Positions 10,989-57,937 of a stretch of DNA of 64,000 nt are shown here, in pieces (position 1 is the stretch's first letter; the number at the start of each line of letters is the position of its first letter). Both the position numbers and the translations under genes were made by a program. This DNA comes from Squalus acanthias (lineage: Eukaryota): positions 95,482,001 through 95,546,000 of the forward strand of contig CM059431.1 in assembly GCA_030390025.1 (NCBI GenBank), in the 5' to 3' direction. Below the pieces are notes generated by a model that saw nothing but the letters and a program-made list of their open reading frames with translations, was not told the origin of the DNA and did not search any database.

Positions 10989-11025
10989 TTACCTGACGAA
11001 GGAGCAGCGCTCCGAAAGCTTGTGA
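10989..11025 (+). ncRNA. Minimal type I hammerhead ribozyme motif
   Basis: TTAC-CTGACGA-A-GGAGC-AGC-GCTCC-GAAA-GCTT-GTGA. Confidence 0.75.
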
Positions 11026-11115
11026 TTTCAAATAAAACTGTTGGACTATAACCTGGTGTTGTGCGACTTCTCACTTTTGTCCACCCCAGTCCAACACCAG
11101 CATCTCCGCATCATG
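10991..11115 (+). mobile_element. Short Penelope-type insert (family A) carrying a hammerhead motif
   Basis: Interrupts a CR1; TSD ACTACCTTT at 10982-10990 and 11116-11124. Confidence 0.8.
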
Positions 11116-13066
11116 ACTACCTTTTCAGGCAGTGCATTCCAGATCATAACAACTTGCTGCATAAAAAATTCTCATCTTGCCTCTGGTTCTTTTGCCAATT
11201 ACTTTAAATCTGTGTCCACTGGTTACTGAGACTTCTGCCACTAGAAACAGTTTCTCCTTACTTACTCCATCAAAACCCTTCATGATTGTGAACACCTCTA
11301 TTAAATTTCTCCTTAACCTTCTCTGCTCTAAGAACAACCCCAGTTTCTCTAGTCTCGCCACGTAACTGAAGACCCGCATCCCTGTTACCATTCTAGTAAA
11401 TCTCATCTGCACCCTCTCTAAGCCCTTGACATCCTTCCTAAAGTGTGGAGTCCATAAATGGACAAAATACTCCATCTAAGGCTTAACCAGTGCTTTATAA
11501 AGATTTAGCATAACTCCCTTGCTTTTGCCTCTGTTTATAAAGCCAAGGATCTCGTGTGCTTTTTTAACAGCCTTCTCAACTTGCCCTGCCACCTTCAAAG
11601 ATTTGTGAACATACACCCCCAGGTCTCTCTGCTCCTACACCCCTTTTTAAAATTGTATCATTCAGTTTCTATTGCCTCTCCTCATCCTTCCAATAAAATG
11701 CATTGCTTCACACTTCTCTGTGTTAAATTGCATCTGCCATGTGTCTGCCCATTTCACCAGTCTGTCTATGACCTGCTGAAGTCTGTTACCATCCTCCTGA
11801 CAGTTTACTACATTTCTGAGTTTCATGTCATCTGCAAATGTTGAAATTATGCCCTGTATACCCAAGTCCATTAATATACATCAGAAAGCCCAGTGGTCCT
11901 AATACCGACCCCTGTGGTACACCACTGTACACTTCCCACCAGTCTGAAGAACAGTCGTTCGGTCTCTTAGCCAATTTCATTTCCATGCTACCACTGTCCC
12001 ATTAATCCCATAGGCTTCAGTTTTGCTAACCTGTCTATTATGTGGTATTTTATCAAAAGCCTTTTGAAAGTTCATATGCACAACATCAACCGCACTACCT
12101 TCATCAACCCTCGCCGTTACTTCATCAAAGAACTCAATTAAGTTAGTCAGACACGATTTACCTTTAACAAATCCATGCTGGCTGTCATTTATTATCCCAT
12201 ATTTTTCCAAGTGACAATTAATTTTGTCTCGACTTATGGTCTCTAAAAGTTTCCCCACCACTGACGTTAGGCTGACTGGGCTGCAGTTGCTGGGTTTATC
12301 CCTCTCCCCTTTTTTGAATAGGGATGTAACATTTGTAATCCTCCAGTCCTCTGGCACCACTCCCATATCTAAGGAGGGTTGGAAGATTGTGGTTAAAGCC
12401 TCTGCTATCTCCACCCTTACTTCCCTCAGCAACACAGGATGCATCCCATCCAGAGCAGGTGACTTTCCTACTTTGACCTCTGCCAACCTATTTAATACCT
12501 CCTCTTTATCTATTTTGATCCTATCCAATTTCTCTATTACCTCCTCCTTTACTGTGACATTGGCAGCATCCTCTTCTTTAGTGAAGACAGATGTAAAGTA
12601 CTCATTTAGTAACTCAGCCATGCATTCTGTCTCCACAAGAAGATCTCCTTTTTGGTCGCTAATCAACCACACCCTTCCTTTGACTACCCTTTTACTATTT
12701 ATATGTTTATTAAAGACTTTTTGGTTCCCTTTTATGTTACCCGCTATTCTAATCTCATGTACTCTCTTTGCCCATAATTTCCTTTTTCAGTTCTCCTCAT
12801 ACTTTCTGTATTCAGCTTGTGCTTGCACAATCCACTGTAAACCGAGGGGCTAAATTGTGAACCTTTGCACTGATAGCTATTTATTGTTACTTTCTGTTGC
12901 TGTGCCAACCAATGATAAACACAAAAGTGCCGATTTTATGAATGCAAGCTCCTGGCATGGAGTCTCACTCAGGTGGGAGCATCTATCAGGAAATCAAGGG
13001 CATGCTCTCCACGATTTTCCATCCATTTACAGGAGTGCCAGGGAGCATATATTTGTGCAAGATATA

Positions 13067-13407
13067 GGCCCAGAAATTCGAGTCTCCGGCTTGCCGCGGG
13101 GGTAAGGATCACGCGCGCTCTTACCTACCGCGCCTGCCGTTGTGTTTTGGGCCCACGGGAACTTCGGGTCCTGGGCCTGTTCCAACTGCCGGCGCGCAGT
13201 GCTTGCGTGTCCCAGGGGCGCAGTTAGTGCGATGCGACCCCTGGGATCACGTGGGCCATGGAGAGCCAATGGCAGCAGACCATCTTTCATTCATAGATTT
13301 GACAGGAGACCTGTCAAATCTGTGAATTGAAATCGGCCCCAAAAGAACAGCTAAACTTAAAATAAATTTTTAAAAAACCATCACATTTAGGGCCGAATTT
13401 TTGGGCC
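13067..13407. mobile_element. Harbinger-type MITE family M2, internally deleted copy
   Basis: Ends GGCCCAGAAATT / AATTTTTGGGCC; homologous to the left half of 13766-14466. Confidence 0.75.
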
Positions 13408-13765
13408 ATCGGCTAAAAGTTTAGAATTTGAACAAATCTTTGAAATAGCAACACAAAGGTTTTTTTAAATTCTTTTTGCCATTTTAGAAAGTGTACTTGG
13501 CCCGAGGGCAGCAACCTCAAACTCCTGTGATTGAGTGATTGGGTTTTTTGTTAAAAAAAAGAAACTCCAACATCAAAGGGACATTTTTATGTTCATATGG
13601 GGAAATTATAACATTTTCAATCAAGGGTTGAGAGGCTGTGGAAAATATTCAGTTCATCATATTTTGTTTTCAGGATGTACTGCCCCTGAAATCTTGCAAT
13701 GCCATGTTATCTATTTCTGTGCACAACTGTAGACTGGAAGTGTGCTTATTGCTGAAACAGTTATC

Positions 13766-14466
13766 GGCCCAGAAATTAAACACTGAGTGTTCACGCGGGG
13801 GTAAGGCTTCCCCGCGATATCTCACTCCGCGCCTACCTTTTTCCTCCGGGCCCACACGAACTTTAGTTTCAAGGCTGCAGCTGTGCAGTGCTTGCGTGAT
13901 TCAGTTAGAGCCAATGGCAGCACACCATCTTTCATTCATAGTTTTGACAGGAAGACCTGTCAAAGCTATGAATACTATACCCCCCAAAAGAACAGCTAAA
14001 CCTCAATTAAATTTTTTTAAAAAGCCATCACATTAATAAAATAAGTATAGTTAAATAAATTAACCACTTTAAACAAAAAATTAAATTTTTGAAAAAATTT
14101 AAAATCTTTTTAAAAGTTATAAAAATAAACTTACCTTTCTTTAAAGTCTCTAAAAAAGATAAACCTGTTGAAAAAAATGTAAAATAATACTTAATTAACT
14201 ACTTACCTTGTTAAAAGAGGGTCTTACGCCTCCTTTCTTTATGTGTAAAATCTTCCATGCTTACCTGCGCATTCAAAGCACTAAGTGCACTGCGTGCACA
14301 CAGCCTGTAGCGCGCACGCGGTTCACTTAGGAACCGCCCCCTTTTGAATTCACGAAGTGCCGGTTTCCTGCGCATGCGCAGTGCATGCTGGAAACCGGCA
14401 ATTGGAGACCTAAAACGCGAGAGTACACAGTGCGTACTCTCGCGTATTAGATCTAATTTTCGGGCC
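13766..14466. mobile_element. Harbinger-type MITE family M2
   Basis: TIR GGCCCAGAAATT / AATTTTCGGGCC; TSD ATC. Confidence 0.88.
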
Positions 14467-15984
14467 ATCATCTTACCATCTGCACTGTGATCAGTCCATC
14501 CTTATACCACATGCTTGAAGTAAGGGAAGTGATTGGTTCACCTAAGGAATGGTCCTCCTTAGTCTTGGAATGTAACTCAAACTTCCAAATCCAATAGCGA
14601 AGACGGAGGGGGAATAAATTAACTGGGGACAGCATTCCTTTAAATGTTTAGCATTATAAAGTGGCTAATTTGTTTAGCTGGAGTTGTCCCTCTCCCCCCA
14701 GGTGTACAGAATAGCCTTATTCTTAGCCATGCCTCTTCCTCATGACTGAGGGATGCAGCAGAGAGATAAACCTGAAATAAGGAAGCTTATTCAAAGTTAC
14801 ACCACAGAATAAAACCCACGGCAGAAAGGGCAAGAGAGTATGGAAGTTGAACTACATGCAAACAGTAAGGTAACTCATACAATATTGTTCTTTAGTCATT
14901 CAGGCTCGGCATACAATCAAATTATGCCAAAGTAATTGAAATACTGGACAGGGCAAATAAATGACCTAGTATTAAGACTGGTTTGGAGCACAGCAGCAGT
15001 AAATGATTCCTCATGAGTACCATCAAGACTACAACACTTGGTTAAAGTATACAAATTATGTCATGTAGCAAACAGGCTGATAGCAGTGTAAATTTTCAGA
15101 GAGTCACAGTAATCTCGTATTGGAGAAATGGGAGAGGAAGTTAGTATCCCTGAGTTTCCAATCATTAATGATCAGCAAATCAGAAACATCACAAATCAGG
15201 TGTGCTAAGCTCTGCACTGAGACTTTGTGCTGGGAGCAGTTTCCAAACATTTGTCCCACGCACGTGGACTCAAGATTTGTCAGCAGCACAAATGAAATTT
15301 TAGCTGCACATCTCTCCCGACAACACCTGACCAGTAAAGGAATAACCAAAGAAGATACCTTCTGCAATACAAATTTATTGACATCTTTATTCGTACCAAA
15401 AGATCTAATTGAGAGAATGCTTTTCTACCTAAACTGAATGCCGAGGTTTTGTAAACGTCAACAGTATAAATTCTCTGCAAAGGTGCTTGTAATGGCAGGT
15501 CAAACTTTGGCCAAGCCAGGCACTACTTAAGTAAATCAAGGCTTATAGTTTGCACAGGAAAATGGATGGGATCACAAACCACCACCACATAAGTTAAAAT
15601 CCTGGAATCTCATATAGTAAAAGCGGAATTTGATTTATTATGGGTAATTTTGTGATACTCCAGGTACTCTGGTGCGAAGCCTTGCCAGCACTAGGTATGA
15701 ATCATGGCTGCAGTGCATTAGCCCCATCTACAACCTGCGTTCATGTCTAACAAGGCTTCACACTGGCAGCAAAGCCTTACAAAATTACCAGTCATAGGAA
15801 ACCAGTGAACTGGATTATAATTTAACTTTTTCCCTGAGGGAAAGTGGGTTTGGTTCATGGCCTGCAATAGTTCACACTTACATGCATATAGAACCAAGGG
15901 AAGCTTCAATAGATCCATAAATTTGGAGTTTAGTAATTCTTTCTTACTTCTCCCACATTTTTCTACAATAACTACATTTCAGCC

Positions 15985-16105
15985 ACTGCTTCAACCTACA
16001 TTACAATAGTGACTACACTTCAAAAAGTACTTCATTGGCTGTGAAGCGCTTTGGGATGTCCTGTGGTTATGAAAGGTGCTATATAAACGCAAGTCTTTAC
16101 TTTTT
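15985..16105 (+). mobile_element. 3' fragment of Deu-type SINE with L2-like tail
   Basis: Matches 47890-47983 (acattaca..tacttcattggctgt..aaggtgctatataaa). Confidence 0.7.
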
Positions 16106-16270
16106 TTCTAAACAACAGCATTCTTTACACAAACATTTCCAAGGATGCAGCCCAAGCAATAGACATGAAAAAATAACCAAGCTTCCATTGAAAGCATCTC
16201 TCAGAAAAATGCTACTGTCCCAATTAACTTGTTAGTGTAGCTGATACCAAGAGGATCGCTGAATATTCAC

Positions 16271-16522
16271 CTGGCACATGATTTATGGATTGAAGGTTTG
16301 GCGACCGTACAGGTGGTGAGTCATCGTCTGAGCTGGCAACTGTCTTAATTGCATCATGGTATAGTGGTGTGGAACTAGGCATGGCAAACTTTGACATACG
16401 CGACATCATGATGGATAAGGGATTCTGGGAAAGGCTTGGCTCGGGGGGCACTGAATATGGACTGTTGGACGGAAGACTTCCAGAAAGATCCATAGAACCC
16501 GACTGCCCCGAAACTGGAACAC
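16271..16522 (-). CDS. BCL9: BCL9 penultimate coding exon (252 bp)
   Basis: PPEPSLSQNPLSIMMSRMSKFAMPSSTPLYHDAIKTVASSDDDSPP. Acceptor ccccag|GT and donor CAG|gtgaat; phase 1 joins in frame to the 5308 exon. Confidence 0.95.
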
Positions 16523-16888
16523 CTGGGGGTGGGGAAAAAACACAATACATATGAGCACTGGAGTGTTACTGAAACCTTCCAGAAGCAGAGACTGCACATT
16601 AGGTTGTAATGGAACATAGAAAGATTATTGTCAAAGCAGGTCATAGACTGCATTGTCTTTGTTCCATCTTCACATCACACATAAGCTGTAAATGTATGTG
16701 TTGCAATATTTGGGTTAAACTACAGGAAATTTAACTTGGCTGTTTCACAGGGCACATACTGGTTAGGATGTTATACTATGTCAATGTACCCTCAGAGTGC
16801 ATTTTTGGTAAAACCTATTTCTTGAGCTGTACAACTCATGAGATATAAACAAATTAACTGCATCAGGAGCAAATATAGCAAACACATC

Positions 16889-18600: not shown

Positions 18601-18984
18601 GAATGTTTTTCTACTTTTCCATGTGTACATTTTTTGAATAAATCTTCCCACTCTTGTTGATTGTAAAATGTTACAAATTTTTAATACAATATTATGAAAG
18701 AAAAAAATCAATGTTTTCTGCAAAACCAACTCCCCCCCTGCCATGTATTCTATCTATCTATTCTACAATTTTGATTTTTTCTCTCTTCCTGTAATCATAC
18801 AGTCACCCACAACTACCACTTGCTTGTTCTTATGAGATTTACTTTATTCCCCATGGATAGCCAATTGCTCCATTGTGCCAGTGTTTACCCTCCTCCATTT
18901 CATTGAACTTGTCTGCATCACAGGCATCCATCACAGTATACTTGTTAGACAATGTATGACTCACAAGGGATTCCTGTACCTGCT

Positions 18985-19150
18985 ATTCCTGCCTCCTCTT
19001 CCTTTCTCCATGAACAGTCACCCATTGCCCCTTCTCTATGTCATGCCTGCTCGTTACCTGTGGGGTGACCATTTCCTGGTTTGTACTTTCCAGGAACCCG
19101 TCTTCCTCATGTTTATGGAACATCTCCAACTGTTGCTCTCCATCTGGAGA
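18985..19150 (-). mobile_element. CR1 ORF1-like fragment, inverted relative to the adjacent CR1
   Basis: FLESTNQEMVTPQV..QWVTV resembles CR1 ORF1 linker motifs. Confidence 0.5.
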
Positions 19151-25973: not shown

Positions 25974-26108
25974 TAACTGTCCATTAAAATTGTTGGATGG
26001 AAAATATTGTAGTGCCAACCAACCTCTGTGCGGAATTACGTTAAGTGCACCCAGTGGGTGAAGCTCCACGCCAGGTGTGCAAATTTGCAAAACATACCCT
26101 ATAAAAGT

Positions 26109-26136
26109 TGGACTATAACCTGGTGTTGTGCGACTT
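26109..26136 (+). mobile_element. 28-bp ultra-truncated family A insert
   Basis: tggactataacctggtgttgtgcgactt flanked by CTATAAAAGT direct repeats (26099-26108, 26137-26146). Confidence 0.75.
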
Positions 26137-26389
26137 CTATAAAAGTATGTAATGGGAAGAATACCTGACTGATTGAGCACCCCTTGCTGACCACATACAA
26201 CATTCTAGACCTGAGATAAACAACCAAAGGCAAAACTTCCAAAATGATAAAAAGGTAATTAATGAAAATTCCAGTACATTATTCTCACTTTACAATCTGT
26301 AGATTCAGTTGTGACTAGTGCACTATGTACATGACAGCTCCACAATTCCAGCAACAAAACAACCAATTTAATCACCTCCATCTATGCTT

Positions 26390-32527: not shown

Positions 32528-33795
32528 TTACACGAATCTGGCATGGAATAGTCCATCCCTTGCCTGACGGCCAGTAATGAGGTCGCGTGCTGGTAGCACT
32601 GGGACAGCCGCCTCCGCCAGGTGTTCCTCATCGACCGTCTCATTCGACTCTTCCTCCGGCTGCTCCTCCTCCTCTGAGGAGGAGGAGGTTGTGCGCTGAG
32701 CCACTTGTTCCTCAGGTAGCGGTAAGCCACGCTGCAGTGCGATGTGCAGTGCACAGCAGACCACGATGATTCTGGACAACCTGGCTGGTGCATACTGTAG
32801 GGCTCCACTAGATCTGTCCAGGCATCTGAAGCGCATTTTGAGCAAGCCTATGGTTTGCTCTATGATGCTTCTGGTGGAAATGTGGCTATCATTGTAATGC
32901 TCCTCAACTTCATTTGATGGCCTCCTCATTGGTGTCATTAGCCACGTCTTCAGGGGATAGCGCTTGTCTTCAAGTAGCCATCCGGAGAGTTGGGTTGGCG
33001 GATTGAAGAGCTGAGGCACAGTGGACTGTCACAGGATGTACGAGTCATGGCAGCTGCAAGGGAACTTTGCGCACACATGCATAATGTTCTTCCTGTGGTT
33101 ACACACCAGCTGCACTTTAAGGGAGTAGAAGCCCTTGCAGTTCACAAATACAGCTGGGTTGTGATGGGGTGCCCTGATGGCCACATGTCTGCAGTCGATG
33201 ACACCCTGCACCCTTGGGAAGCCTGCCATATTGGCAAACAAACTGCCCGCGCGGTGACACTTGCTTCATCCGTTGAGAAGTGGATGTAATTATCCGACTT
33301 GCCAAACAGGGCATCAGTAACCTGCGCTATGCATTTGTGGGCGGCCGACTGGGAGATGCTGCTGATGTTTGATGCTGATCCCTGGAAGGAGCCTGAAGCA
33401 AAAAAGTTGAGGGCGGTGGTGACTTTGACAGCCACTGGTAAGGAGTGTCCACACACTCCTCTGGGCTCCAGGTGTTGGTGCAGCATTGCGCAGATGTCTG
33501 TGACTACCTCTCGCGAAAGTCTCAGCCTCCTTTGGCACTGCTGCTCAGTCATGTTGAGGAAGCTCATCCTCGGCCTGTAAACCCTGTGTTGGGGGTATCT
33601 CCTGCGTCGAGGTGCAGCCCTGCGCTGATGCCTTCTGCCCTGTGCAGCATCAGGTGGCTCAGGAGAGGTTGGTGCTCTTGTTGTCGGTGCTGCTGGTGTG
33701 CCTGGTTCTGCTGCTGCTGCGCTGCTCGTCCTCCGAATCTGAGGACCAGGATGAGAGAATATAAATGGTTCCCATTCTGCTGGTGAAAATGTCAC
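32528..33795 (-). pseudogene. Harbinger (HARBI1-like) DDE transposase, frameshifted
   Basis: [86 protein letters not shown]. Confidence 0.93.
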
Positions 33796-35502: not shown

Positions 35503-37691
35503 AGTGTCCTTATTTTCAAAATGGTCATTGTATGTACAGTAAACCAGATGAACGAAATATCCTGGGATTGACTGTATCTCCTGTAGTGTTCCTTATTTTT
35601 TTTGCCCTCACCTGGATCATGCCTAATTTTGGAGCCATGACAGAGGGATGTGATTTCAGTTCATTTTCTGTTCCTTGAGTTTCCCAATTCATTACCATCC
35701 TTTTCCATTGAGGTAGGGATGTCCTTGATCCTGGGATCTGTTACGTTGGCAACATGCAGAGGACAAGGTGGCTGCTGTAGAGCCAGAATACCTGGGAGAT
35801 CCCAGCCAAATTGGGGGGATTAATGTCCTGCAGACCCCTGTCCAGGACCCTCTCCTTCCGTGTGCTGCAGCTGCTAATGTTTGAAGTAGGTAGGTTTTGG
35901 GGTAGGTAGGGGGCTGTCAGAAGCTCATCAGTACCTGACGTACTGGTGGAGTGAGATGTCTTGGGTTGCCAACTCTGGTTGGAGGCATTCCTTGAGGTTT
36001 GATCACATGATATTCTGACCACATGACTTCTGACCACATACCATCTGACCATAGAGTCATTATGGCAGAAGGAGGCCATACGGCCCATCAAGTCCATGCC
36101 GGCTTTCTGTAGAGCAATCCAGTCAGTCTCAATCCCCCGCTCTATCCCCGTAGCCCTGCAAGTTTATTTCCCTCAAGTGCCTATCCAATTTTCTTTTGAA
36201 AACATTGAGTGTCTCCGCTTCCACCACTTCTGTCGGCAGTGAGTTCCAGGTCATTATCACTTGCTGCATAAAAAAGTTCTTCCTCACATCCCCCCTGTAT
36301 TTCTTGCCCAAAACCTTAAATCTGTGTTCCCTAGTACTTGTACCATCAGCTAATGGGAACAGCCTTTCTCTGTCTACCTTATCCAAACCTGTCATAATCT
36401 TGTACGACTCTATCAAATTTCCCCTCAACCTCCTTTACTCCACGGAGAACAACCCCAGCTTCACCAACCTAACCTTGTAGCTAAAATCCCTCATCCCTGG
36501 AATCATTCTGGTAAATCTCCTCTGCACCCTCTCAAGGACCTTCACATCCTTCCTAAAGTGTGGTGACCAGAACTGGATGCAATATTCTAGTTGTGGCCTA
36601 ACCAGCGCTTTATAAAGGTTCAGCATAACTTCCCTGCTTTTGTACTCAACACCTCTATTTATGAAGCCCAAGATCCCATATGCTTTGCTAACTACTCTCT
36701 CAATATGTCCCGCCACCTTCAAAGATCTATGCACATGAACTCCCAGGTCCCTCTGTCCCTGCACACTCTTTAGAACTGTGCCATTAAGTTTATATTGCCT
36801 CTCCCTATCCCTTCTGCCAAAATGCATCACCTCACACTTCTCTGTATTAAATTCCATCTGCCACTTGTCTGCCCGTTCTGCTAGCCTTTCTATGTCCTAT
36901 TGCAGTCGATTGGTATCATCCTCACTGTTTGCCACACCTCCAAGTTTGGTATCATCGGCAAACTTTGAAATTTTACTCTGTATTCCAATATTCAAGTCAT
37001 TTATATATATCAAAAAAAGCAGTGGTCCTAGCACTGACCATCCACCAGTCTGAAAAACAACCATTTGCCACGACTCGCTGTTTTCTGTCCTTATGCCAAT
37101 TTCTTATTCAAGCTGCCACTGACCCTCCTATTCCATGAGCCTCAATTTTGTTAACCAGCCTTTTATGTAGTACTTTGTCAAACACTTTCTCAAAATCCAT
37201 ATAGACAACATCCATTGCATTCCCTTCATCAACCTTCTCTGTTACTTCATCAAAAAATTCAATTAGGTTAGTCAAACACGATCTGCCTTTTACAAATCCG
37301 TGCTGACTCTCCTTAATTCTCTCCAAGTGCCTATTTAATTTTTTCCCTGTTTATTGTTTCTAAAACCTTACCAACCACTGATGTTAAACTGACTAGCCTG
37401 TAGTTACTAGGACTGTCCTTACACACTTTCTTGAGCAATGGTCTCACATTTGCCACTTTCCAATCCTCTGGCACCTCCCCCGTATCTAGGGAAGATTGGA
37501 AGATTATGGCAAGCCTTTCTGCTTTCTCCACCCCCACTTCCCTTAGCAACCTGGGTGCAAGCCATCCGGACCAGGCGACTTATCCACTCTAAGCATACCC
37601 AGCCTGTCCAGTACATCTCGCCTATCAATTTTCAACCCATGCATTACCTCTACCATCTCCACTTCTACCGATATTTCGTCAGCATCCTCTT

Positions 37692-37831
37692 ATCATAGAA
37701 AGTTACAGCACGGAAGGAGGCCATTTTGGCCCATCGTTTCCGCGCCGGAAATCAAATGGCCCGTATGGGGATTGAACCCGCGATTTTGGCGTCATTAGCA
37801 CCACGCTCTAACCAACTGAGCTAACCGGCCT
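37692..37831 (-). mobile_element. tRNA-Ile head plus CR1 3' tail retroposon (minimal SINE)
   Basis: TSD TCCTCTT at 37685-37691 and 37832-37838; tail gatgggccaaaatggcctccttccgtgctgtaactttctatga. Confidence 0.8.
37757..37830 (-). tRNA. tRNA-Ile(AAT), probable pseudogene
   Basis: GGCCGGTTAGCTCAGTTGGTTAGAGCGTGGTGCTAATGACGCCAAAATCGCGGGTTCAATCCCCATACGGGCCA; 74 nt, a few G>A/A>G changes relative to canonical vertebrate tRNA-Ile-AAT. Confidence 0.88.
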
Positions 37832-38054
37832 TCCTCTTCTTTGGTAAACACCGATACAAAGTACTCATTAAGTATTCCAGCATTGCCCTGCGCCTCTAAG
37901 CATATATCAACTTCTTTGTCCCTAATAGGCCCCGCCCCACCTCTTACTAGCCGCTTACTATTTACATGCTGGTAGAAGATTTTTGGGTTCCCTTTTACGT
38001 CACATGGCACCTGATCATGAGCCTCATTCTCCTGTCTTTCCATTTCTCCTCGAG

Positions 38055-38550
38055 CCACCAGTCCCCAGTCTCCCTCTCTCCCAAACCCCCATTCCTGAGT
38101 CTCCCTCTCTCCCCAGACCCCATTCCCAGTCTCCATCTTTCCTCAACCCCCATTCCTGAGTCTCCCTCTTTCCCCAGCCCCCATTCCCAGTCTCCATCTT
38201 TCCTCAGCCCCCATTCCTGAGTCTCCCTCTCTCCCCAGACCCCATTCCCAGTCTCCATCTTTCCTCAGCCCCCATTCCTGAGTCTCCCTCTTTCCCCAGC
38301 CCCCATTCCCAGTCTCCATCTTTCCTCAACCCCCATTCCCCAGTTGACATCTCTCCCCGAATCCTGAGGCCCCCCATTGCTGATTCCTGAGCTCCCCTGA
38401 CTCCTGAGACTCCTGATTGCCAACTTCTGAGCATCCGATTCTTGAGGCCCCCCGATTCCTGACTCCTGAGGCCCCCTTATTCCCAAGGCGGCCTGATTCC
38501 CGACTCCTGAGCTCCCTTCAATTCCCGTGCTCCTCCTGATTCCTGACTCT
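38055..38550. repeat. Pyrimidine-rich minisatellite (about 59-bp dimeric unit) grading into ctcctgag repeats
   Basis: Repeated ccccattcctgagtctccctct.. / ccccattcccagtctccatctttcctca. Confidence 0.9.
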
Positions 38551-38739: not shown

Positions 38740-39045
38740 CTTACTTGTCCCATTACCATCTCCTTTTGCTTTGTACAATCATACTTTTTGTCATTTAATC
38801 TCTCCTGCCTTCCACCCTATCACAGACCTTCCCTTTTGTTCTTTCCTCCCCTCCCCCCTTTCCCTGCCCCTGCACTTGCTTAAAACCTGTTACATCTCTA
38901 ACTTTTTCCAGTTCTGACAAAGGGTCATAGACCTGAAACGTTAACTCTGTTTCTCTCTCCACAGATGCTGCCTGACCTGCTGAGTATTTCCAGCATTTTC
39001 TGTTTTTATTTCAGATTTCCAGCTTCGGCAGTATTTTGCTTTTCT
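38740..39045 (+). mobile_element. Penelope-type terminal repeat (family B)
   Basis: Pyrimidine-rich leader, hammerhead motif and tail shared with 52399-52547. Confidence 0.7.
38910..38946 (+). ncRNA. Minimal hammerhead motif, family B (G8>A variant)
   Basis: AGTT-CTGACAA-A-GGGTC-ATA-GACCT-GAAA-CGTT-AACT. Confidence 0.6.
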
Positions 39046-42890: not shown

Positions 42891-43242
42891 ATAGTTAGCT
42901 GAATTTGCCTATTTAGACAATGGCCTTAAAAGGCACAGATGAAGTTCGCAGCGCAAAGTTACAACCATGCTCTGGACTCGAGATTACATGTCAGCAATGC
43001 CACACAAGATCTGTTAGAGCATTCATGTATGTTTAATGGTGGTGCTATGTACTTTACAGGCGAACCCCAATACATTTTGGTAAGAAGAACGAGGAGAGGC
43101 AATAGAAGCTAAATGGTACAATTTCAAAGGGGGTGTAAGAAGAGAGACCTGGGGGTGTTTGGTCACAAATCTTTGAAGGTGGCAGGATAGGTTAACAAAA
43201 TAGTTATAAAGCATATGGGAGCCTGGGCTTTATAAATAGAGG

Positions 43243-43363
43243 TCATGATGCGGAGATGCCGGTGTTGGACTTCACCTGAGGAAGGAGCAATCGATAGCTC
43301 CGAAAGCTTGTGATTTCAAATAAAACTGTTGGACTATAACCTGGTGTTGTGCGACCTCTCAAT
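43243..43363 (+). mobile_element. Family A Penelope-type insert with inverted terminal segment
   Basis: 14-bp TSD TTTATAAATAGAGG (43229-43242, 43364-43377). Confidence 0.85.
43272..43313 (+). ncRNA. Minimal type I hammerhead ribozyme motif
   Basis: TCAC-CTGAGGA-A-GGAGC-AATCGATA-GCTCC-GAAA-GCTT-GTGA. Confidence 0.78.
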
Positions 43364-43692
43364 TTTATAAATAGAGGCAGAGAGTACAAAAGCCAGGAAG
43401 TTATGCTAAATCTATATGAAACACTAGTTTGGCCCCAGTTGGATTATTGTGTCAATTCTGGGCACCACACTTTATGAAGGACATGAAGGCTTTGGAGAGG
43501 GTACAGAAGAGTCTTACTAGAATTATTCCACAGATGAGTGATTACATTTATGTGGACAGACTGGAGAAGCTGGGGTTCTCCTTAGAGTAGTGAAGGCTAA
43601 GAGGAGATTTGATAGTGGTGTCAGCCAGTGGCTCAGCTGGTAGCATCTGTGCCTCTGAGTCATAAGGTTGAGGGGTCAAGTTCCACTCCAGG

Positions 43693-51424: not shown

Positions 51425-52060
51425 GGGGTAAAAATTGAGTCGCGCCCCCTTTGGGGCGCTAACTTTGCCAGGGTGCTACCTTTAGCGCCCCATAAAAATT
51501 AGCGCCCCCCCGCCGGAAATTGAGTGGTTGCGCCGCAAGACGGAAGTGGGGCACTACTGGAAGCGCCCCGCATCCGCTTGGGGCGCTGTGAGTCAATATC
51601 GTGGCGTTACGTGCTGCACCTTCTTAAAGGGGAGGAGCCTTGAGCAGCGAGAACCCCCCTGGGGATCGGGAGTGCCGGCAAAAGAGCCCGGCACTCAAGA
51701 GAAGTGCCGGGCTCTTGGAGTGCAGCCGGCACTTTGTGGGGGGGTGGGGGTCTTCACGGGGGCCGGGGACAGCAACGGGGGCAGGTGCTGGCAGGCGGCC
51801 AGCAACAAAAATGGCTGCCCGCCACCTCCCCTTTAACTAGCGCCGCCCCGGCTGCAGATAGGCCCCCCTGACCCCATCGGACATAGCGTCCGGCGGTAAG
51901 TCAAAGGGCGCTACCGAAGATCGCCGCCGGAGCGCTAACCTCCCACTGAATTTCGCGGGAGGCGTGGGCGCCGCCGCACCCGGGCGCTAGTTGCTTTGCG
52001 CCCCATTAGCGCCCTCTTAAGGCACTAACGGGAGGAGCAAACCAACTGAATTTTTCCCCC
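51425..52060. mobile_element. MITE M4-like copy inserted in a CR1 tail
   Basis: GGGGTAAAAATT / AATTTTTCCCCC; TAT/TGT flanks. Confidence 0.85.
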
Positions 52061-52398
52061 TGTGACTCTAAAATGGAGACAAAGGGAAGTTGGGACCAGC
52101 AAGAGTCTGAATGGCCCAAAATCGAGCTGACATCAGAAGAGTAAGCACCAACATGGAAGAATGGACTTGCATTTACATACTGACTTGGCACATCCTCAGG
52201 AGATCCCAAAGCATTTCATAACCAACCAATTACTTTTTTTTTAAGTGCAGTTACTGTTATGAAGGCAAAAATTATAAGAGAAAAGCGCAAGCACACGAAG
52301 GAGATGGAGGACAAAAAAATGTGATCCTTAACAGGATAATGAATCAATCAACTACAAGAAGAAGATATGCAGAAGGAGAGCAGTGGTAATATGATAGT

Positions 52399-52547
52399 AC
52401 GATAGCAAAATACTGCCGATGCTGGAAATCCGAAATAACAACAGAAAACGCTGGAAAAACTCAGCAGGCCAGGCAACATCCGTGGAGAGAGAAAGAGAGT
52501 TAACGTTTCAGGTCGAAACCCTTCGTCGGAACTGAAAGAGCAAGAAA
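52399..52547 (-). mobile_element. Short Penelope-type insert (family B)
   Basis: 12-bp TSD TAATATGATAGT (52387-52398, 52548-52559). Confidence 0.8.
52498..52533 (-). ncRNA. Minimal hammerhead motif, family B (U4>C variant)
   Basis: AGTT-CCGACGA-A-GGGT-TTCG-ACCT-GAAA-CGTT-AACT. Confidence 0.62.
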
Positions 52548-53212
52548 TAATATGATAGTGTTGTGTTAAAGACTGTCCATAAGATATTTACATGATATAT
52601 TTATTGATCATCTAGATTTTAAAGGAAGTTGATGACATTAATGCATACTTAAAGGCATTATGTATTGAGAAGCTGGGACTGTCACTTTGCAATACTATAA
52701 CTGTATAGAATTGGCATTATAAATGTAAGGCTTGTGGAAAAGATGAATTTACAGGTGCAGTTACTGGACATTATGAGGCCTCAAGCTTCAGGGAGACAGT
52801 GAGCAAGTGGGACAATTGGTATTCCACACTGGATAGTTAGTGGATGATTCACCCAACCAGGTGATTGGTCATAATACCAAGAGCCAGAGACTACACAACA
52901 CAACAAGCCTCAAAGGTTCAGCTCCAGGGACAATCTAAGGTCCAATTGTAATAAGGGGAGATGGGGAATATGTGAATATTGGTCGAGGCCAAAGAATGAA
53001 AGAGCAAATAAAAGATGCAAGCATGAACTGACTGGTTGGTAGGGAGGTTAAAAATTTAGTGTGAACTGAGGAAGGGGGAGCAGAAGAGTGGCAGTATGAA
53101 CTGGAGGGGGTAAAACGAGCTTAGACGGAGGAGTGCCAATATGAACTAGGGTGGGGGACGAAGGATGTTGGTGGGAGATGATTAGAGTAAGAGACATGTG
53201 TGTAGAATCATA

Positions 53213-54836
53213 GGGCTAGAAACTCATTATAGCCAAGGAATGGGCAGTGTTTAGACTAAAAATGGTTAAGTAGCGCCAGGTGAAAATCGTCTAGGCTGCA
53301 CGCAAAATTCGTCCTCGCACCTCATTAAAATGATTACAGCCATGATTCTCGTCTAAAAATCAAAGCTGATTGGCGTTACACTGAAAAGACGGACCAATAT
53401 CGTGTGTAGTCTAAACTCAATTAATGATTGCCATCGGCTTTTCCTTGATGCTGCAGCACTTCATTCTCAGCATTGTTGGATGTGCAGCTGCCTCAGTAAC
53501 CATAAGAAGAAGGATAAGGAGAAGGAACACTTATTTACAAGTCTTGATGGCAGATCGCCACCCCAGGAAGAGAGCCCGGAGGTTTTCCGATGAAGCTTTG
53601 GAGGCATTGGTTTTAGTGATGGAGAGAAGGCCCTTTACCTGCTAACTGGCAGGAGGCCCTCGCCACAAGTCTGCCAGGACTATGTGGAGGGAGGTGACAC
53701 ACCACGTCAGGGGCAGCACTGTGGTCCCCAGGACCCACACCCAGTGCAGGAGGAAGTTTAACGAGCTCACAAGGGTGGTCAGGGTGAGTGAAGGCTTCAA
53801 CAAAAGCTACATACCACCATCTGTACCACAAGCTTCACACACTGCTTAATGCACCACACCCCCAGCACTCACCCAACAACAATCTCTACATAGCAACACT
53901 CACACCCACATCTCACACCTTGCACACAATGACAGCTATTCAACTATGGCAGGCACAAGGGTCATTAATTATTAGAATTCATGTCATATGTGAGATACGT
54001 TTATAGATACATTTATTAGGTGTGTCTGGAATATTTTGTGGTCTCTCTCATTTCACCTTTTTGCCCAGGAGGACACTGTGATACGCCATGAGACAGGGAT
54101 TGTATGATGGCAATGTGCTGAGCTATGGGGATCTGGGGTTTCATTCATGTGAATCGGAGTCTGATGAGCCGATCATGGACAGCCCGTCCAGAAAGGCTGA
54201 TTGTCTTGCTGCCTCCGCCCTCCCTCCTGTTCCTCCTCCTCATCCTTCTCCTCCTCATTCTCCTCCTTCTCATCCTCTTCCTCCTCGTTCTCTTCCTCCT
54301 CATCCTCCTCTGCCTCGTAGTCCTCCTGAGGTAATTCCACAATCCCGCAGCCCCCATGATTGTGAGGAAGTGTTGTGAGCAGAAGCCTTTAACAAATAAT
54401 GAGTGACTTCTGCACTTGAATCAACACTCCTTGTCACCAAAAAAACTTGAAATAACTAAAGAGAGCTGTTTCAGTTGCAGGAAGTAGCAAAGAGGCATTG
54501 AAACTGCAAAACCCTGTCAGGTACAGCTGATTGAGAATGGTGCCTTCTGCTGGTAGATGCCAGCTCTCCCTATCTTTGTTCTGCGCTGCCATTAAGGTAA
54601 GTGGCTAAATCCAGTGTTGGAGATTGGACGTCCAGTGAGCGTTGCACACTCACTGATGTCACGATCTCCATGATGGCGAGGTCCCTGGCAATCGAGTTTA
54701 CCAGCAGCACTACTGGCAACACCGACATGTTGTGTGGTGCTGGAACCGGCATAAGCTGTTGTTACAGCTGTCAACTGTGTTTTACCACCATCTTGTGGTG
54801 TTAACGTGTACCGCAAATGACATGAATTTCAAGCCC
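53213..54836. mobile_element. Harbinger deletion derivative (element C)
   Basis: TIR GGGCTAGAAACTCAT / ATGAATTTCAAGCCC; TSD ATA; Myb exon MADRHPRKRARRFSDEALEAL..QCRRKFNEL on plus; acidic-repeat transposase N-terminal remnant on minus. Confidence 0.85.
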
Positions 54837-55070
54837 ATAGAATCTTACAGCACAGAAGGAGGCTACTAGGACCATTGTGCCTGTGCCAACTCTTTGAAAG
54901 AGCTATACAATTAATCCCACTCCCTCACTCATAGCCCTGCAAATTTTTGTTTTCAAGAATATATCCAATTCCTTTTTGATAGTTACTAATGAATCTGCTT
55001 CCACCACCCTTTCAGGTAGTGTATTCCAGATCGTAACAACTCACTGAGTAAAACAAAAATCTCCTTATCT
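54837..55070 (-). mobile_element. CR1 3' fragment; its tail was split by element C
   Basis: tagaatc[element C]atagaatcttacagcacagaaggaggc. Confidence 0.8.
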
Positions 55071-57616
55071 GTATGAAGGGGATGGGGTAGGGGGAAAAAT
55101 GACTGTTGAGGTAACCATTAGCGAAGTGATGGTCTGGTTGGGAGAAATATATCATTTGTATAAAGTATGTACAATTTTAGATTTGCTTCCTACACACCTG
55201 ATCTTAAATTGTTCATTTTTGAAAAGTCAATGCTTGGGTCATTGAGCCATCTTTATATGATGTATTATTAAAAACAATTTAGATTCTAATATGGAAGTTT
55301 TATGTCTAGTTGCTTGAAGAGAACTGAAAAGCACAGCCAAAGGTGATGGCCTGCTAGAAATGTTTTCACTGATAGAATTCTGAGAAGAAGTTCTGGCTGA
55401 TCGGGGTGTTATAATTCAGGTCAACGTCCTATCACTTTTCAATGATGCTCAAAAGGCAATTCCTATAAGCAGACAAAGTTATGACCATCATTTAACTCTA
55501 CAATTATGGTAGAACGCATGTGGGATGCCCACTACTCTCTCCTGATCAATACGAAAAACAGTCACTACCACACTGTCAGGCCGTTATAAGGACTAAATCT
55601 AATATTCAGATTTATTTACAAGATAATTACACAGAAGCACAAAAACAAAGAAACCGTTGGTACAGATTTTTAGGAAACAAAGACTGAATCAGTCTGTAGG
55701 AATTCTTCAACTTACACAGTCCAATATTCTGCAAAATACTGGAGGAAAGTCCTTTTAAATTACCTGAAACGATATTTGTTGTATTTGTGTTGTGTGATTT
55801 CTGAGCTGGGTCACAGAGTCCATTTCTCATTAGCTATACTGGTGCTATTATGCCAAAAGAAACCATTCATGATCACAGGTGTAAATCTTGAGCCATTAAT
55901 TGTGTTTCTCTCCACATATCCCCTTGATGTTTACAAATAATAATTTGTTGTACTTCCCCCATTAGAAACCTTGCATATATTAACATTTTACAGAAATAAT
56001 GGCCTAAGCATCAAACAGGCTTGACCTAATACACTTCTCAATATACAGTGTTACCAATAAATGAAGCCTGTAGATTCTGATTGAAACTGAAGGAACTTAG
56101 ATTGATCCCTGGGTCGCAGAGACAAAAATTTGAATTACCGCCCATAAGCTTATGGAGAGGTACTGTAGGAGTAATCAACCTTTGGGCCACTATATGGATG
56201 CTGAGTATCTAGACTACTATCATTGATCAAAGAGTTTTCTCAAGGAAATCCCCTGGTAAAACTGTGGTGGAGTGTGTGTGCTCAGCTCGAGAATTAACTT
56301 GACCACTATGGCAGAACATACCTAGGATTGAGGAGTGTGTGCAAAGTCACCAGAAGTTCTGGTTTGACCATAACACAAGGACACGAGACTGCTGCGCCGG
56401 CCACAGAGTGCAAGTTTTACTACTGATGAGGCCAGAAAAATTACAAACTTACATTTAAGATCTTTAGATAGTTGTGAGAAAACACAATGCTACATGATGT
56501 GGACTTTTCACCTACCCAAATAGTACATGGCCAACCTTGATGAATCTTCCTGGTGTTGGCCCTAATTAGATATTCATCATGAGCTCCCAGCATGCAATAG
56601 ATCAATTAGTAGAAGCTCGCAGGGTTGGCGGCAAAAAATCTGGCTCTGCTGCCACAATTTAAAGGGGAGCAGCAACCTTTCAAAGGAATGGTCTTAGATT
56701 AGCAAAATTGATATTATGGAGCAGCATCAAGAAGGAACACTTAGGTTTACAGATGTAGTGGTTGAGTTATTAATGCAAGACATGAGGGAAAGGAGGATTA
56801 CTGAGTTTGGCTCCAGAGCACAAATTGCAGCTGCAACTCATCAATTAACTCTTGGCACACTCACATTGTAAAAGTGTTACACATAATAAATCTTGCCAAA
56901 AAAATGTAGTTGCATGATGAATGTTCATGTACCCACATCCAGGATGTGCTGCACGATGGGTGTCAATTTATGTGTTTCTGACACTTCCAACATCTGAGCA
57001 CTACTTCTCTGTTTGTAGAACAAGGCAATACATAATAGGACGGAACAGACCAAACATGCAGCAGGTGTCTTCATAATATTGAGTGCCTTTCAAGAGGTGA
57101 CCTTAGAAACAAAACAGAGGGAATGAATTAAAGTCGAGGCTGAGACCTCCTCCAAGCTTAGAGCTTGTATCATCCCTCTCGTGTTTTTCTATCTACTCAT
57201 TCAACACTCAGGTATGTAAACCTCCTTGCTGCTCATGGGTGTGTTCCCACATAAGGGATGTCCAGGCACATGGTTGAAATATGTAAGTAATATTTGAAGG
57301 GGTGACATGCAGCCAGCGCGTTCCAACATATTTCTGCTTTTTTTCTGTAGGTATGCCCCAAGAACCAGCTACAGAAGAAGCCAACACATGACAGCACCCA
57401 GCATCACTCACTTCACCCTGTCACAAGTACCAGCACAGACACATCCACCCTGGGGAAATTTAGGTAGTGAGTTTCAGGTGGGAGCCCTATGTGAAGCACT
57501 GAGCATGAGTGAGAAGGAGCAAGTGGAGGAGCAGTAACTTATCTAGGGGGCCTGTTTGCATTGTTCCGCAGCTGCAGAGCCGAAGGATTCAGACATCATG
57601 GTCTGCTTTATAAAAG

Positions 57617-57937
57617 TGAGAAGTCGCACAACACCAGGTTATAGTCCAACAGTTTTATTTGAAATCACAAGCTTTCGGAGCTGCTGCCCCTTCGTCAGGT
57701 GAAGTAAAGGAATACGAATCGGCACAGCATATATAGACAGAGAACAATGCCTGTGTAGCGTACAATGTCAGACGACTACAGTTAATCTTTCTGACTGCCT
57801 TTTATCACACCTCGGCAGAGAAACAATCAGGTCAGGAAGGCATTATATCAAAGACCTAGCAAGATACAGCTAAGACAATGAGGTGGGGTCACAGGGGGTC
57901 TAATGTGTCAAATGCAGTCTGTATGGAAAACCATAAA
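57617..57937 (-). mobile_element. Longest family A Penelope-type insert
   Basis: Direct repeat CTTTATAAAAG at 57606-57616 and 57938-57948. Confidence 0.8.
57665..57702 (-). ncRNA. Minimal type I hammerhead ribozyme motif on the BCL9 sense strand
   Basis: TCAC-CTGACGA-A-GGGGC-AGCA-GCTCC-GAAA-GCTT-GTGA. Confidence 0.78.

What the first reader, a model, noticed from the sequence alone, without database searches (positions are those of the whole stretch)
10989..57937. Family of tiny mobile inserts carrying a minimal hammerhead ribozyme (family A)
Seen: three related non-coding inserts (10991-11115 +, 43243-43363 +, 57617-57937 -), each with a 9-14 bp TSD. Each reads stem I (TCAC/GTGA; TTAC in the truncated copy), CTGANGA, an extra A, stem II (GGRGC/GCTCC), GAAA, GCTT. 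Variation is confined to N7, the stem II loop and G.U wobbles, and AATAAA follows closely. Known: Penelope-like elements carry minimal type I hammerheads whose palindromic stem III (here AAGCTT) allows dimeric folding. Inference: a ribozyme-bearing, non-coding, retrozyme-like unit mobilised by a Penelope-type RT. The motif class is known, but this family may be uncharacterised.
Basis: partly seen in the sequence, partly recalled or inferred. Interest (0 to 1): 0.8.

Follow-up and report, generated by a model that had tools for sequence, protein, structure and literature searches.

The report
Penelope-type mini-retroposons carrying minimal hammerhead

Summary
Three inserts carry an intact minimal type I hammerhead (CUGANGA, one extra A, a 5-bp helix II, GAAA, palindromic AGCU, U17, a 4-bp helix I), each flanked by a 9-14 bp target-site duplication (TSD). 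For two of them, uninterrupted paralogous sites in the window prove insertion. I found a fourth copy (26108-26137), cut down to 30 bp.

The motif shows every extra trait published for Penelope-like-element (PLE) min-hammerheads. The inserts also show the PLE insertion signature:
- 5' truncation and variable TSDs, with AT-rich targets in 3 of 4.
- Two alternative 3' ends, 53 and 94 nt after the cut site, separated by an optional 41-nt AC-rich "tail".
- In copy 2, a 29-nt inverted tail fragment at the 5' end.

Public-run contigs suggest roughly 10^5 copies and show the family in at least three coded organisms. A marine-metagenome contig carries a homologous module with one compensatory change in helix I.

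Not shown:
- Self-cleavage.
- A parent with reverse transcriptase and GIY-YIG endonuclease: 0 of 149 window ORFs, and no genome is held.
- Tandem or circular retrozyme behaviour.
- More conservation in the ribozyme than in the adjacent 3' region.

Verdict: a new member of a known kind. This scan has flagged PLE hammerheads before in other genomes.

The parts
10991..11115 (+). Copy 1. It is 5'-truncated inside helix I; only AC remains before CUGA, and the flank happens to supply UU. It runs through the hammerhead and a 53-nt 3' region, and carries the 41-nt tail.
   Evidence: TSD ACTACCTTT at 10982-10990 and 11116-11124. Empty paralogous site at 55003-55012.
10993..11025 (+). Hammerhead of copy 1: CUGACGA, an extra A, helix II GGAGC/GCUCC with loop AGC, GAAA, AGCU, U17 (predicted cut after 11021), and the helix I 3' strand GUGA.
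11075..11115 (+). The optional 'tail': 41 nt, A+C fraction 0.70 without the leading T run. It contains AGUCCAAC, which can pair with GUUGGACU at 11040-11047. It ends at the distal 3' terminus (E2), 94 nt after the cut site.
   Evidence: Run contigs show the same continuation in other genomic copies (loose ends at 57612).
43243..43271 (-). 29 nt of the tail in inverted orientation, forming the 5' end of insert 2. Its outer end is the same E2 terminus as in copy 1.
   Evidence: 96.7% over 30 nt to 11088-11117, reverse strand.
43272..43363 (+). Direct part of copy 2. It starts exactly at the helix I 5' strand (UCAC), holds a complete hammerhead (N7 = G, 8-nt loop II; predicted cut after 43309), and ends at the proximal 3' terminus (E1).
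   Evidence: TSD TTTATAAATAGAGG at 43229-43242 and 43364-43377. Empty paralogous site at 36652-36665.
57617..57937 (-). Copy 3, the longest at 321 bp. It has a roughly 235-nt non-coding body, a complete hammerhead (57665-57702; helix II has a G.U pair; predicted cut after 57669) and the 3' region, ending at E1.
   Evidence: stops in all six frames; run contigs pile up sharply between about 57612 and about 57940. TSD CTTTTATAAAG at 57606-57616 and 57938-57948.
26108..26137 (+). Copy 4. Extreme 5' truncation leaves 30 bp of the 3' region (GUUGGACU...GACUUC), ending 4 nt short of E1. It has no hammerhead.
   Evidence: 31.8 bits, E 5e-05. Flanked by TATAAAAG at 26100-26107 and 26138-26145. The 5' junction is ambiguous because the element's own AUAAAAC resembles the target.

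Best explanation
The inserts are dispersed, mostly 5'-truncated copies of a very high-copy retroposon family mobilised by a Penelope-like element (PLE) reverse transcriptase and GIY-YIG endonuclease.

Conserved unit. It is a 3' module of about 95-135 nt: a PLE-type minimal type I hammerhead, a 53-nt region with a conserved GUUGGACUAUAAC(C)UGGUGUU block, and an optional 41-nt AC-rich tail whose AGUCCAA pairs back to GUUGGACU.

Inferred mechanism, by analogy with the anole PLE studied in vitro:
- The PLE protein binds this module on an uncleaved transcript and nicks AT-rich DNA.
- Reverse transcription starts inside the RNA at one of two sites. E1 is at the U run after CUCAC; E2 is about 41 nt further on. 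This gives copies without and with the tail.
- Copying usually aborts early, which gives the 5' truncation.
- Priming on the second DNA strand can add a short inverted copy at the 5' end, as in copy 2.

The hammerhead can fold helices I and II alone. It has no helix III of its own, so it could cut (after CUU) only when two copies pair through AGCU, and probably only weakly or with protein help. It does not define the ends of these inserts.

What is shown: the insertions, TSDs, alternative ends, inverted fragment, motif architecture, abundance, and an outside homologue. What is inferred: the PLE enzyme, internal initiation, and any cleavage.

The 321-bp copy 3 probably represents a discrete non-coding (SINE-like) full-length unit, at about 55%. 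The alternative is the truncated end of a coding PLE.
For: 1. Motif. It has the full core, the unpaired nucleotide between A9 and 10.1, G10.1-C11.1, palindromic AGCU and a 4-bp helix I. These are the traits listed for PLE min-hammerheads in PMC4209133.

2. Fold. The minimum-free-energy fold of the isolated 54-58 nt is helices I plus II.

3. Insertion proof. TSDs of 8-14 bp, plus empty paralogous sites for 2 of 4 copies.

4. Ends. There is a shared 3' region with four different 5' ends. The two 3' termini lie 53 and 94 nt after the cut site, separated by a 41-nt tail with A+C 0.70. In the anole element PAc the tail is an optional 30-40 bp stretch between two internal RT start sites in an AC-rich stem-loop. 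From the paper's numbers, those sites lie 85-92 nt after the hammerhead cut, and targets are AT-rich.

5. Inverted fragment. A tail fragment sits inverted at the 5' end of copy 2. This matches the 'inverted 5'-truncated copy' and 'tail at either end' described for PLEs, and PAc extending both DNA strands.

6. Targets. 3 of 4 TSDs are 71-88% A+T.

7. Abundance. Summed contig depth reaches 5.6 million in the module, against about 6-59 in the flanks (run X1). The family is present without its flanks in runs of organisms B and D. Four copies in 64 kb fits the same order of magnitude.

8. Outside homologue. L001 aligns from helix I to AGUCCAA at 72-80% identity. Helix I carries an A-U to U-A swap, and the GUUGGACU and AGUCCAA blocks were not imposed by the search pattern. 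All 52 of 52 pair cells are standard pairs.
Against: - No RT/GIY-YIG ORF is linked to the module. The genome is not held.
- Rfam finds no hammerhead, at gathering score or at E up to 10 on two of the copies.
- Covariation support is statistically weak: 4 sequences, 1 compensatory pair, and 128 of 500 shuffles do as well.
- Across the family the ribozyme is no better conserved than the adjacent 3' region. 57614-57652 shows no listed variant, and a helix I-breaking G to A occurs in 23% of X1 depth. That table also omits 9 rows.
- The 41-nt tail is slightly outside the published 30-40 bp range.
- Junctions at E1 show 1-5 nt of microhomology with the target, whereas PAc initiation was reported as non-homologous.
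- The fold of the tail region is not better than shuffles (z = -1.25).
- Depth from contigs is not a copy count, by the tool's own caveat.
Confidence: 0.78

Rival explanations
1. The inserts are ordinary 5'-truncated ends (pseudo-LTR or UTR plus hammerhead) of a coding, autonomous PLE, not a separate non-coding family. Copy 3 would then be a longer truncation product. The mechanism is the same as in the best explanation; only the source element differs.
For: - Cervera and de la Pena state that most min-hammerheads occur as single dispersed motifs, 'probably related to truncated PLEs'.
- PLE copies are heavily 5'-truncated.
- The 5' ends of the four copies all differ.
Against: - In X1, depth over the body does not decline steadily: 0.86 million at 57709-57727 against 1.05 million at 57880-57898. 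Copies that pass the hammerhead mostly run to near the 5' end of copy 3.
- Contigs from two organisms stop at about 57942 (table 8, records 7 and 32). This suggests a discrete unit of about 320 nt.
- The body has stops in all frames.
- Both points rest on contig summaries with many rows hidden.
Confidence: 0.35
2. The inserts are solo monomers shed by a non-LTR retrozyme. That would be a tandem repeat whose transcripts self-cleave at successive hammerheads, circularise, and are copied by a PLE or LINE reverse transcriptase.
For: - The 2026 preprint (10.64898/2026.07.22.740005; abstract, Results and passages read) reports vertebrate retrozyme families with minimal or canonical hammerheads, many monomers, and kinship to PLE pseudo-LTRs.
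- Three low-depth 'go-back' junctions in X1 (depth 8-27) show that occasional head-to-tail arrangements exist (table 5c).
Against: - No tandem array contains the motif in this window.
- The go-back junctions are negligible beside depths in the millions.
- The hammerhead lacks the 6-bp helix I and loop-loop contacts of retrozyme hammerheads.
- The copies end at E1 or E2, not at the cut site, and all three ribozyme-bearing copies were copied across the cut site.
Confidence: 0.1
3. The family is a LINE-dependent SINE or LINE tail in which a hammerhead-like string arose by chance and has no ribozyme meaning.
For: - The window is packed with APE-plus-RT LINE fragments.
- Rfam hammerhead models do not match.
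- The motif is no better conserved than the tail.
Against: - No LINE in the window shares the 3' region.
- No tRNA, 5S or 7SL-like head appears in copy 3 at E up to 10.
- The inverted piece in copy 2 comes from downstream of the direct part's end. As I recall LINE-1 twin priming, the inverted piece there comes from further upstream.
- The optional tail and the two termini are a PLE hallmark.
- The strict descriptor scored 0 of 1500 simulated windows.
- The motif, including a compensatory helix I change, persists in a diverged homologue.
Confidence: 0.05

Closest known systems
Minimal hammerheads of Penelope-like elements (Cervera and de la Pena 2014, PMC4209133; dimer cleavage by Lunse et al. 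2017, seen only as cited in PMC6765202)
   Same: The type I topology, the full catalytic core, an unpaired nucleotide between A9 and 10.1, G10.1-C11.1, no helix III loop with palindromic 15.x-16.x, a short 4-5 bp helix I, and occurrence mostly as single dispersed copies.
   Different: - Helix II is 5 bp here, against 7-8 bp in the schistosome families described.
- No linkage to an RT/GIY-YIG ORF is shown.
- The apparent copy number, of order 10^5, is well above the 4,000 (coelacanth) and 9,000 (Xenopus) quoted in that paper. My figure is only a depth-based hint.
PAc (Poseidon of Anolis carolinensis) and the PLE 'tail' (Frangieh et al. 2024, PMC11167929; Craig et al. 2021, PMC8557442)
   Same: - Two alternative 3' termini separated by a short optional tail in an AC-rich, stem-forming region downstream of the hammerhead.
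- The distal site is a similar distance from the cut: 94 nt here, 85-92 nt in PAc from the paper's numbers.
- AT-rich targets.
- Inverted fragments consistent with extension of both DNA strands.
- Inserts copied from uncleaved RNA.
   Different: - In PAc the hammerhead and the RT start sites lie within the start of the ORF. Here the module has stops in all frames.
- The tail is 41 bp, not 30-40 bp.
- E1 junctions show 1-5 nt of microhomology with the target.
- No biochemistry exists for this family.
Sm-alpha / Sj-alpha SINE-like elements of schistosomes (Ferbeyre et al. 1998; Laha et al. 2000; seen as described in PMC6765202)
   Same: Short, non-coding, very abundant retroposons that each carry a hammerhead.
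   Different: Those elements carry canonical, active hammerheads and a Pol III promoter, and often lie in tandem. Here the hammerhead is the minimal type, no Pol III head is detected, and the copies are dispersed.
Metazoan non-LTR retrozymes (Cervera and de la Pena 2020, PMC7229834; Li, Clavereau and Pollet 2026 preprint)
   Same: Non-coding, a few hundred nucleotides long, hammerhead-bearing, thought to depend on PLEs, with solo monomers scattered in genomes.
   Different: Retrozymes are defined by tandem units and circular RNAs, and mostly by canonical hammerheads. None of these was seen here.

Membership tests
PLE minimal hammerhead (min-HHR) | Catalytic core CUGANGA ... GAAA, with H (not G) at position 17. 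| tested here: met
   3 of 3 ribozyme-bearing copies. No variant of 5% or more is listed in CUGA, GA or GAAA in the run contigs (9 rows hidden). U17 changes to C in 22% of X1 depth, which is still H.
PLE minimal hammerhead (min-HHR) | An unpaired nucleotide between A9 and 10.1, and a G10.1-C11.1 pair. | tested here: met
   An extra A, then G...C closing helix II, in all 3 copies and in L001. The trait is listed in PMC4209133.
PLE minimal hammerhead (min-HHR) | No stable helix III, and palindromic 15.x-16.x that allows a dimer. | tested here: met
   AGCU directly between GAA and U17. Dimer formation itself was not tested; cofold gave only the trivial full duplex.
PLE minimal hammerhead (min-HHR) | Helices supported by covariation within consensus families. 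| tested here: inconclusive
   52 of 52 cells paired, 1 compensatory pair (helix I A-U to U-A in L001) and 3 wobble changes. With only 4 sequences, 128 of 500 shuffles do as well.
PLE minimal hammerhead (min-HHR) | Self-cleavage, as a dimer or with protein help. | not testable with these tools
The runs laid were contigs, which cannot show RNA ends.
Penelope-like element insertion | 5' truncation with TSDs of variable length. | tested here: met
   Four copies have four different 5' ends. TSDs are 9, 14, 11 and 8 bp. Empty sites were found for 2 of 4.
Penelope-like element insertion | An optional 30-40 bp tail at one end, corresponding to two internal RT start sites. | tested here: met
   Copy 1 has a 41-nt extension and copies 2-4 lack it. 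Run contigs show the same continuation past E1. The length is 1 nt over the published range.
Penelope-like element insertion | An inverted 5'-truncated copy adjoining the 5' end. | tested here: met
   Copy 2 only (1 of 4): 29 nt of inverted tail at 43243-43271.
Penelope-like element insertion | Partial tandems or pseudo-LTRs. | tested here: not met
   No tandem arrangement of the unit in the window. Only three low-depth go-back junctions appear in X1.
Penelope-like element insertion | An ORF with a telomerase-like RT and a GIY-YIG endonuclease in the same family. | tested here: inconclusive
   0 of 149 window ORFs of 85 aa or more hit GIY-YIG. The genome is not held, so the parent could not be sought.
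Non-LTR retrozyme | Two or more tandem units, each with a hammerhead, giving circular RNA. | tested here: not met
   TRF finds no array containing the motif. Each insert has a single hammerhead. Circular RNA is not testable here.
Rfam hammerhead families | A match to a curated hammerhead covariance model. | tested here: not met
   No hammerhead hit at gathering score, nor at E up to 10 on 43200-43400 or 57590-57960. This fits min-hammerheads lacking helix III; PMC4209133 found them only with a dedicated relaxed descriptor.
LINE-dependent SINE | A Pol III head (tRNA, 5S or 7SL) and a 3' tail shared with a partner LINE. | tested here: not met
   No Rfam hit of any kind in copy 3 at E up to 10. 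No LINE in the window shares the 3' region. Partner LINEs elsewhere in the genome could not be searched.

The most novel reading that the evidence does not exclude
The roughly 95-135-nt module (hammerhead, conserved stem, tail) may itself be the unit that spreads. It would be a promoter-less 'nano-SINE' of Penelope-like elements, re-mobilised whenever it is transcribed inside a host RNA, and would have reached about 10^5 copies across several related species.

On this reading the hammerhead marks the 5' edge of the module. Three things coincide there: homology with the outside relative begins, family depth steps down about three-fold, and copies 1 and 2 begin. The hammerhead would then act mainly as a protein-binding or RT-stopping structure, not as an RNA-processing ribozyme.
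Probability: 0.2. Interest if true: 0.6.

Novelty: new member of a known kind. Interest (0 to 1): 0.35.

Why it matters
PLE transposition is the least understood retrotransposition route. The 'tail' was explained only in 2024, from in vitro work on one lizard element.

This family offers a natural, very large set of short insertions. Within 64 kb they already display both RT start sites, an inverted second-strand product, AT-rich targets and an intact min-hammerhead.

A genome-wide census of its termini could test three things in vivo:
- Whether internal initiation is general among PLEs.
- Whether microhomology with the target helps choose the start site.
- Whether hammerhead cleavage ever defines insert ends.

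The family is also a practical marker for repeat annotation, because these copies could be mislabelled as SINEs or left unclassified.

Tried and rejected
- Rfam, at gathering score on the whole window and at E up to 10 on two copies: no hammerhead. Read as a limit of the models, not as evidence against the motif.
- Own-genome search: no genome is held for this window.
- Exact 20-mer scans of metagenome, prokaryote-genome and viral collections: 0 hits each.
- Earlier findings of this scan, by sequence and by place: nothing.
- Supplements of PMC4209133 searched for the motif strings and for shark names: 0 occurrences. One file could not be searched.
- Lunse et al. 2017 (PMC5785218) is not held. 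It is cited only through the review PMC6765202.
- Protein Atlas on a LINE ORF and on the 388-aa ORF, to guess the taxon or find a PLE: uninformative. The organism was not determined.
- RNA evidence: no RNA holder was listed. Two runs guessed to be RNA hold the repeat, but as contigs they show neither transcription nor RNA ends.
- RNAcofold of two copies gives the trivial full duplex, which says nothing about the hammerhead dimer.
- The fold of the 94-nt post-cleavage region is not better than shuffles (z = -1.25).
- AATAAA as a poly(A) signal: rejected as a conserved feature. It is absent from L001 and overlaps variable sites 57653 and 57657.
- Reverse-strand reading (element transcribed the other way): rejected. 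The shared end and the depth maximum lie at the 3' side in the hammerhead orientation.
- DNA transposon or MITE: rejected, because TSD length varies from 8 to 14 bp and there are no terminal inverted repeats.

Full report
**1. What is there**

The three inserts are as described. A hammerhead-shaped pattern (CTGANGA, a spacer, GAAAGCTT) occurs at 10993-11021 (+), 43276-43309 (+) and 57669-57698 (-), and in none of 100 shuffles. The next 30 nt are identical in all three copies.

Each insert is bounded by a direct repeat:
- Copy 1: ACTACCTTT, 9 bp.
- Copy 2: TTTATAAATAGAGG, 14 bp.
- Copy 3: CTTTTATAAAG, 11 bp.

Copies 1 and 2 sit inside other repeats that have paralogues in the window. In those paralogues the target occurs once and uninterrupted, at 55003-55012 and at 36652-36665 (-). 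The alignments of the left and right flanks overlap by exactly 9 and 14 bp. These two are therefore proven insertions with target-site duplications (TSDs).

BLAST and a covariance model built from the copies find a fourth member at 26108-26137 (+). It is 30 bp of the 3' region only, between two TATAAAAG repeats.

A home-made descriptor finds only these three hammerheads in the window. With helix II >=5 bp and helix I >=4 bp, 55 of 1500 simulated windows gave at least one hit. None also had G10.1-C11.1 and a palindromic helix III. The copies share descent, so this is one unlikely event rather than three.

**2. The ribozyme motif**

Reading 5' to 3', the motif is:
- Helix I 5' strand, UCAC.
- C3-A9, as CUGA(C/G)GA.
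- One extra A.
- Helix II, GG(A/G)GC with GCUCC, enclosing loops of 3, 4 and 8 nt.
- G12 A13 A14.
- A15.1-G-C-U16.1.
- U17, the predicted cut site.
- Helix I 3' strand, GUGA.

Cervera and de la Pena 2014 (PMC4209133; I read parts 1-2 of the text) describe PLE min-hammerheads with a short helix I of 4-5 bp. They list four traits that their search descriptor did not impose:
- Consensus families with covariation.
- A conserved G10.1-C11.1 pair.
- Palindromic 15.2-16.2.

The last three are met here in every copy. The first can only be touched on (see section 4).

The isolated 54-58 nt folds into helices I and II as its minimum-energy structure. Rfam's hammerhead models do not see the motif at any threshold tried. 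This fits a motif without helix III: the authors needed a dedicated relaxed descriptor.

Activity is unknown. The literature reports weak, dimer-dependent cleavage for such motifs (review PMC6765202). For the anole element it reports protein-assisted cleavage that is not needed for insertion (PMC11167929).

**3. The insertion signature**

All copies share the 3' region but have different 5' ends:
- Copy 4 begins inside the 3' region.
- Copy 1 begins 2 nt before C3.
- The direct part of copy 2 begins at the first base of helix I.
- Copy 3 begins about 235 nt upstream.

There are two 3' ends. Copies 2 and 3 stop at CUCAC or CUCAA, just before a U run, 53 nt after the cut site (E1); copy 4 stops 4 nt short of that point. 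Copy 1 runs 41 nt further, through an AC-rich stretch (A+C 0.70), and ends 94 nt after the cut (E2).

Copy 2 begins with 29 nt of that same extension in inverted orientation. Its outer end is again E2.

These features match published PLE traits:
- Craig et al. 2021 (PMC8557442, passages) list heavy 5' truncation, an inverted 5'-truncated copy adjoining the 5' end, and a 30-40 bp 'tail' at either end of the unit.
- Frangieh et al. 2024 (PMC11167929, main text) show for the anole element PAc that reverse transcription starts at two adjacent internal sites in an AC-rich stem-loop.
- In PAc the tail is the stretch between those two sites, both DNA strands are cut and extended, and targets are AT-rich.
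- From their numbers (cut at +26, start sites at +111 to +118), the start sites lie 85-92 nt after the cut. E2 here is at 94 nt.

Three of the four TSDs here are 71-88% A+T.

The tail's AGUCCAAC can pair with GUUGGACU in the 3' region. The fold as a whole is not better than shuffles (z = -1.25).

Differences from PAc:
- The module is non-coding.
- The tail is 41 nt.
- E1 junctions share 5, 3 and 1 nt with the target. In principle the A-rich 3' end of the nicked DNA could anneal to the U run.

**4. Beyond the window**

No genome is held for this window, so I used public runs.

The 751-nt stretch around copy 3 is held nearly whole by 5 runs of one coded organism. Many other runs, of organisms B to H, hold about a quarter of it.

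I laid four runs on 57500-58050 at 80% likeness or more. Summed contig depth is about 6-59 in the flanks. It jumps to 0.15-5.6 million between about 57612 and about 57940 in the DNA run X1. The runs of organisms B and D cover the element but not its flanks.

The tool warns that summed contig depth is not a copy number. As a rough hint it suggests 10^5 copies, and four copies in 64 kb points the same way.

The 3' 90 nt is about five times deeper than the body. Depth over the body does not fall steadily toward its 5' end, and contigs from two organisms stop near 57942. This fits many module-only copies plus a discrete unit of about 320 nt, but most rows of those tables were hidden.

Contigs that cross E1 continue with the tail sequence seen in copy 1.

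Variants at 5% or more within the hammerhead, as X1 depth shares:
- 57688: helix II A-U or G.U, 53%.
- 57669: U17 to C, 22%. This is still an allowed base at position 17.
- 57666: helix I G to A, 23%. This breaks a pair.

However, 57614-57652 in the 3' region shows no listed variant at all. The ribozyme is therefore not specially conserved, and 9 rows of the table were not shown.

One degenerate-pattern scan of metagenomes returned a marine contig, L001. It aligns with the module from helix I to AGUCCAA at 72-80% identity. The GUUGGACUAUAAC...UGGUGUU and AGUCCAA blocks, which the pattern did not impose, are conserved. Helix I reads UCUC/GAGA instead of UCAC/GUGA, a compensatory A-U to U-A change.

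On the four-sequence alignment, all 52 pair cells are standard pairs, against 27-42% when partners are slid. With four sequences the shuffle control is not significant (128 of 500). Upstream of helix I, L001 and copy 3 show no significant similarity.

**5. What it is, and what it is not**

The best reading is a family of PLE-mobilised retroposon copies whose conserved functional unit is the 3' module. All three ribozyme-bearing copies were reverse-transcribed across the cut site, so their templates were uncleaved. This matches the PAc result that cleavage is dispensable for insertion.

Alternatives considered:
- A retrozyme reading (tandem units, circular RNA) finds no support in this window (criteria from PMC7229834 passages, and from the 2026 preprint).
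- A LINE-dependent SINE is unlikely. No LINE in the window shares the tail, and copy 3 shows no Pol III-type head. The inverted piece also comes from downstream of the direct part's end, which is not the geometry of twin priming as I recall it.
- A parent with RT and GIY-YIG was not found: 0 of 149 window ORFs. It could not be sought elsewhere.

I could not tell whether copy 3 is a full-length non-coding element or a truncated end of a coding PLE. I lean to the former, at about 55%.

**6. Novelty**

All of the following are in print:
- Min-hammerheads in PLEs.
- Their mass occurrence as solo copies.
- The tail and internal initiation.
- Non-coding PLE-dependent relatives.

Three full-text searches did not turn up this family or any description of min-hammerhead families in a cartilaginous fish.

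The organism of this window was not determined. I file the finding as a new member of a known kind.

This scan has flagged PLE hammerheads before in other genomes, such as rotifers and a foraminiferan, but nothing in this genome.

Noticed in passing
window 38910-38946 (+), and 52399-52547 (-) with its hammerhead-like part at 52498-52533: A second, unrelated family of min-hammerhead-like modules. It reads helix I AGUU/AACU, an extra A, helix II GGGUC/GACCU, GAAA, and a palindromic ACGU. Both window copies have a core change: G8 to A at 38914-38920 and U4 to C at 52523-52529. The 52399-52547 copy is flanked by a 12-bp TSD, ACTATCATATTA. Both are followed by a shared region of about 100 nt.
   Followed up: partly
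window 57657, as seen in runs X6 and X10: A+strand A>G at this site is 7.6% and 2.4% of depth in the two runs guessed to be RNA, but 0.08% and 0.01% in the two DNA runs (table 3). It could be an expressed subfamily, RNA editing, or an assembly effect. I have no explanation.
   Followed up: no
L001 477-827 (-): The marine-metagenome contig that holds the homologous module also encodes, on the other strand, only the first 65 profile positions of deoxyhypusine synthase (PF01916, E 2e-16). Homology stops abruptly there. This would fit an exon of a eukaryotic gene with the element in the adjoining intron, or a chimeric contig.
   Followed up: partly
window 37757-37830 (-) and 38039-38549: A tRNA gene by Rfam (52.1 bits) lies next to a 30/61-bp C-rich tandem array of about 300-500 bp.
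   Followed up: no
window 32531-33028 (-): A fragment of a PIF/Harbinger-type DDE transposase (DDE_Tnp_4, E 1.8e-16). It is the only DNA-transposon protein hit among the 149 ORFs.
   Followed up: no
window 4170-5333 (-): A 388-aa open frame with no Pfam family. Its only Atlas look-alikes are weak and of low-complexity type (BCL9, NCOA6 or mastermind-like; best score 0.87, recognition below threshold). It could be a low-complexity exon or chance.
   Followed up: partly
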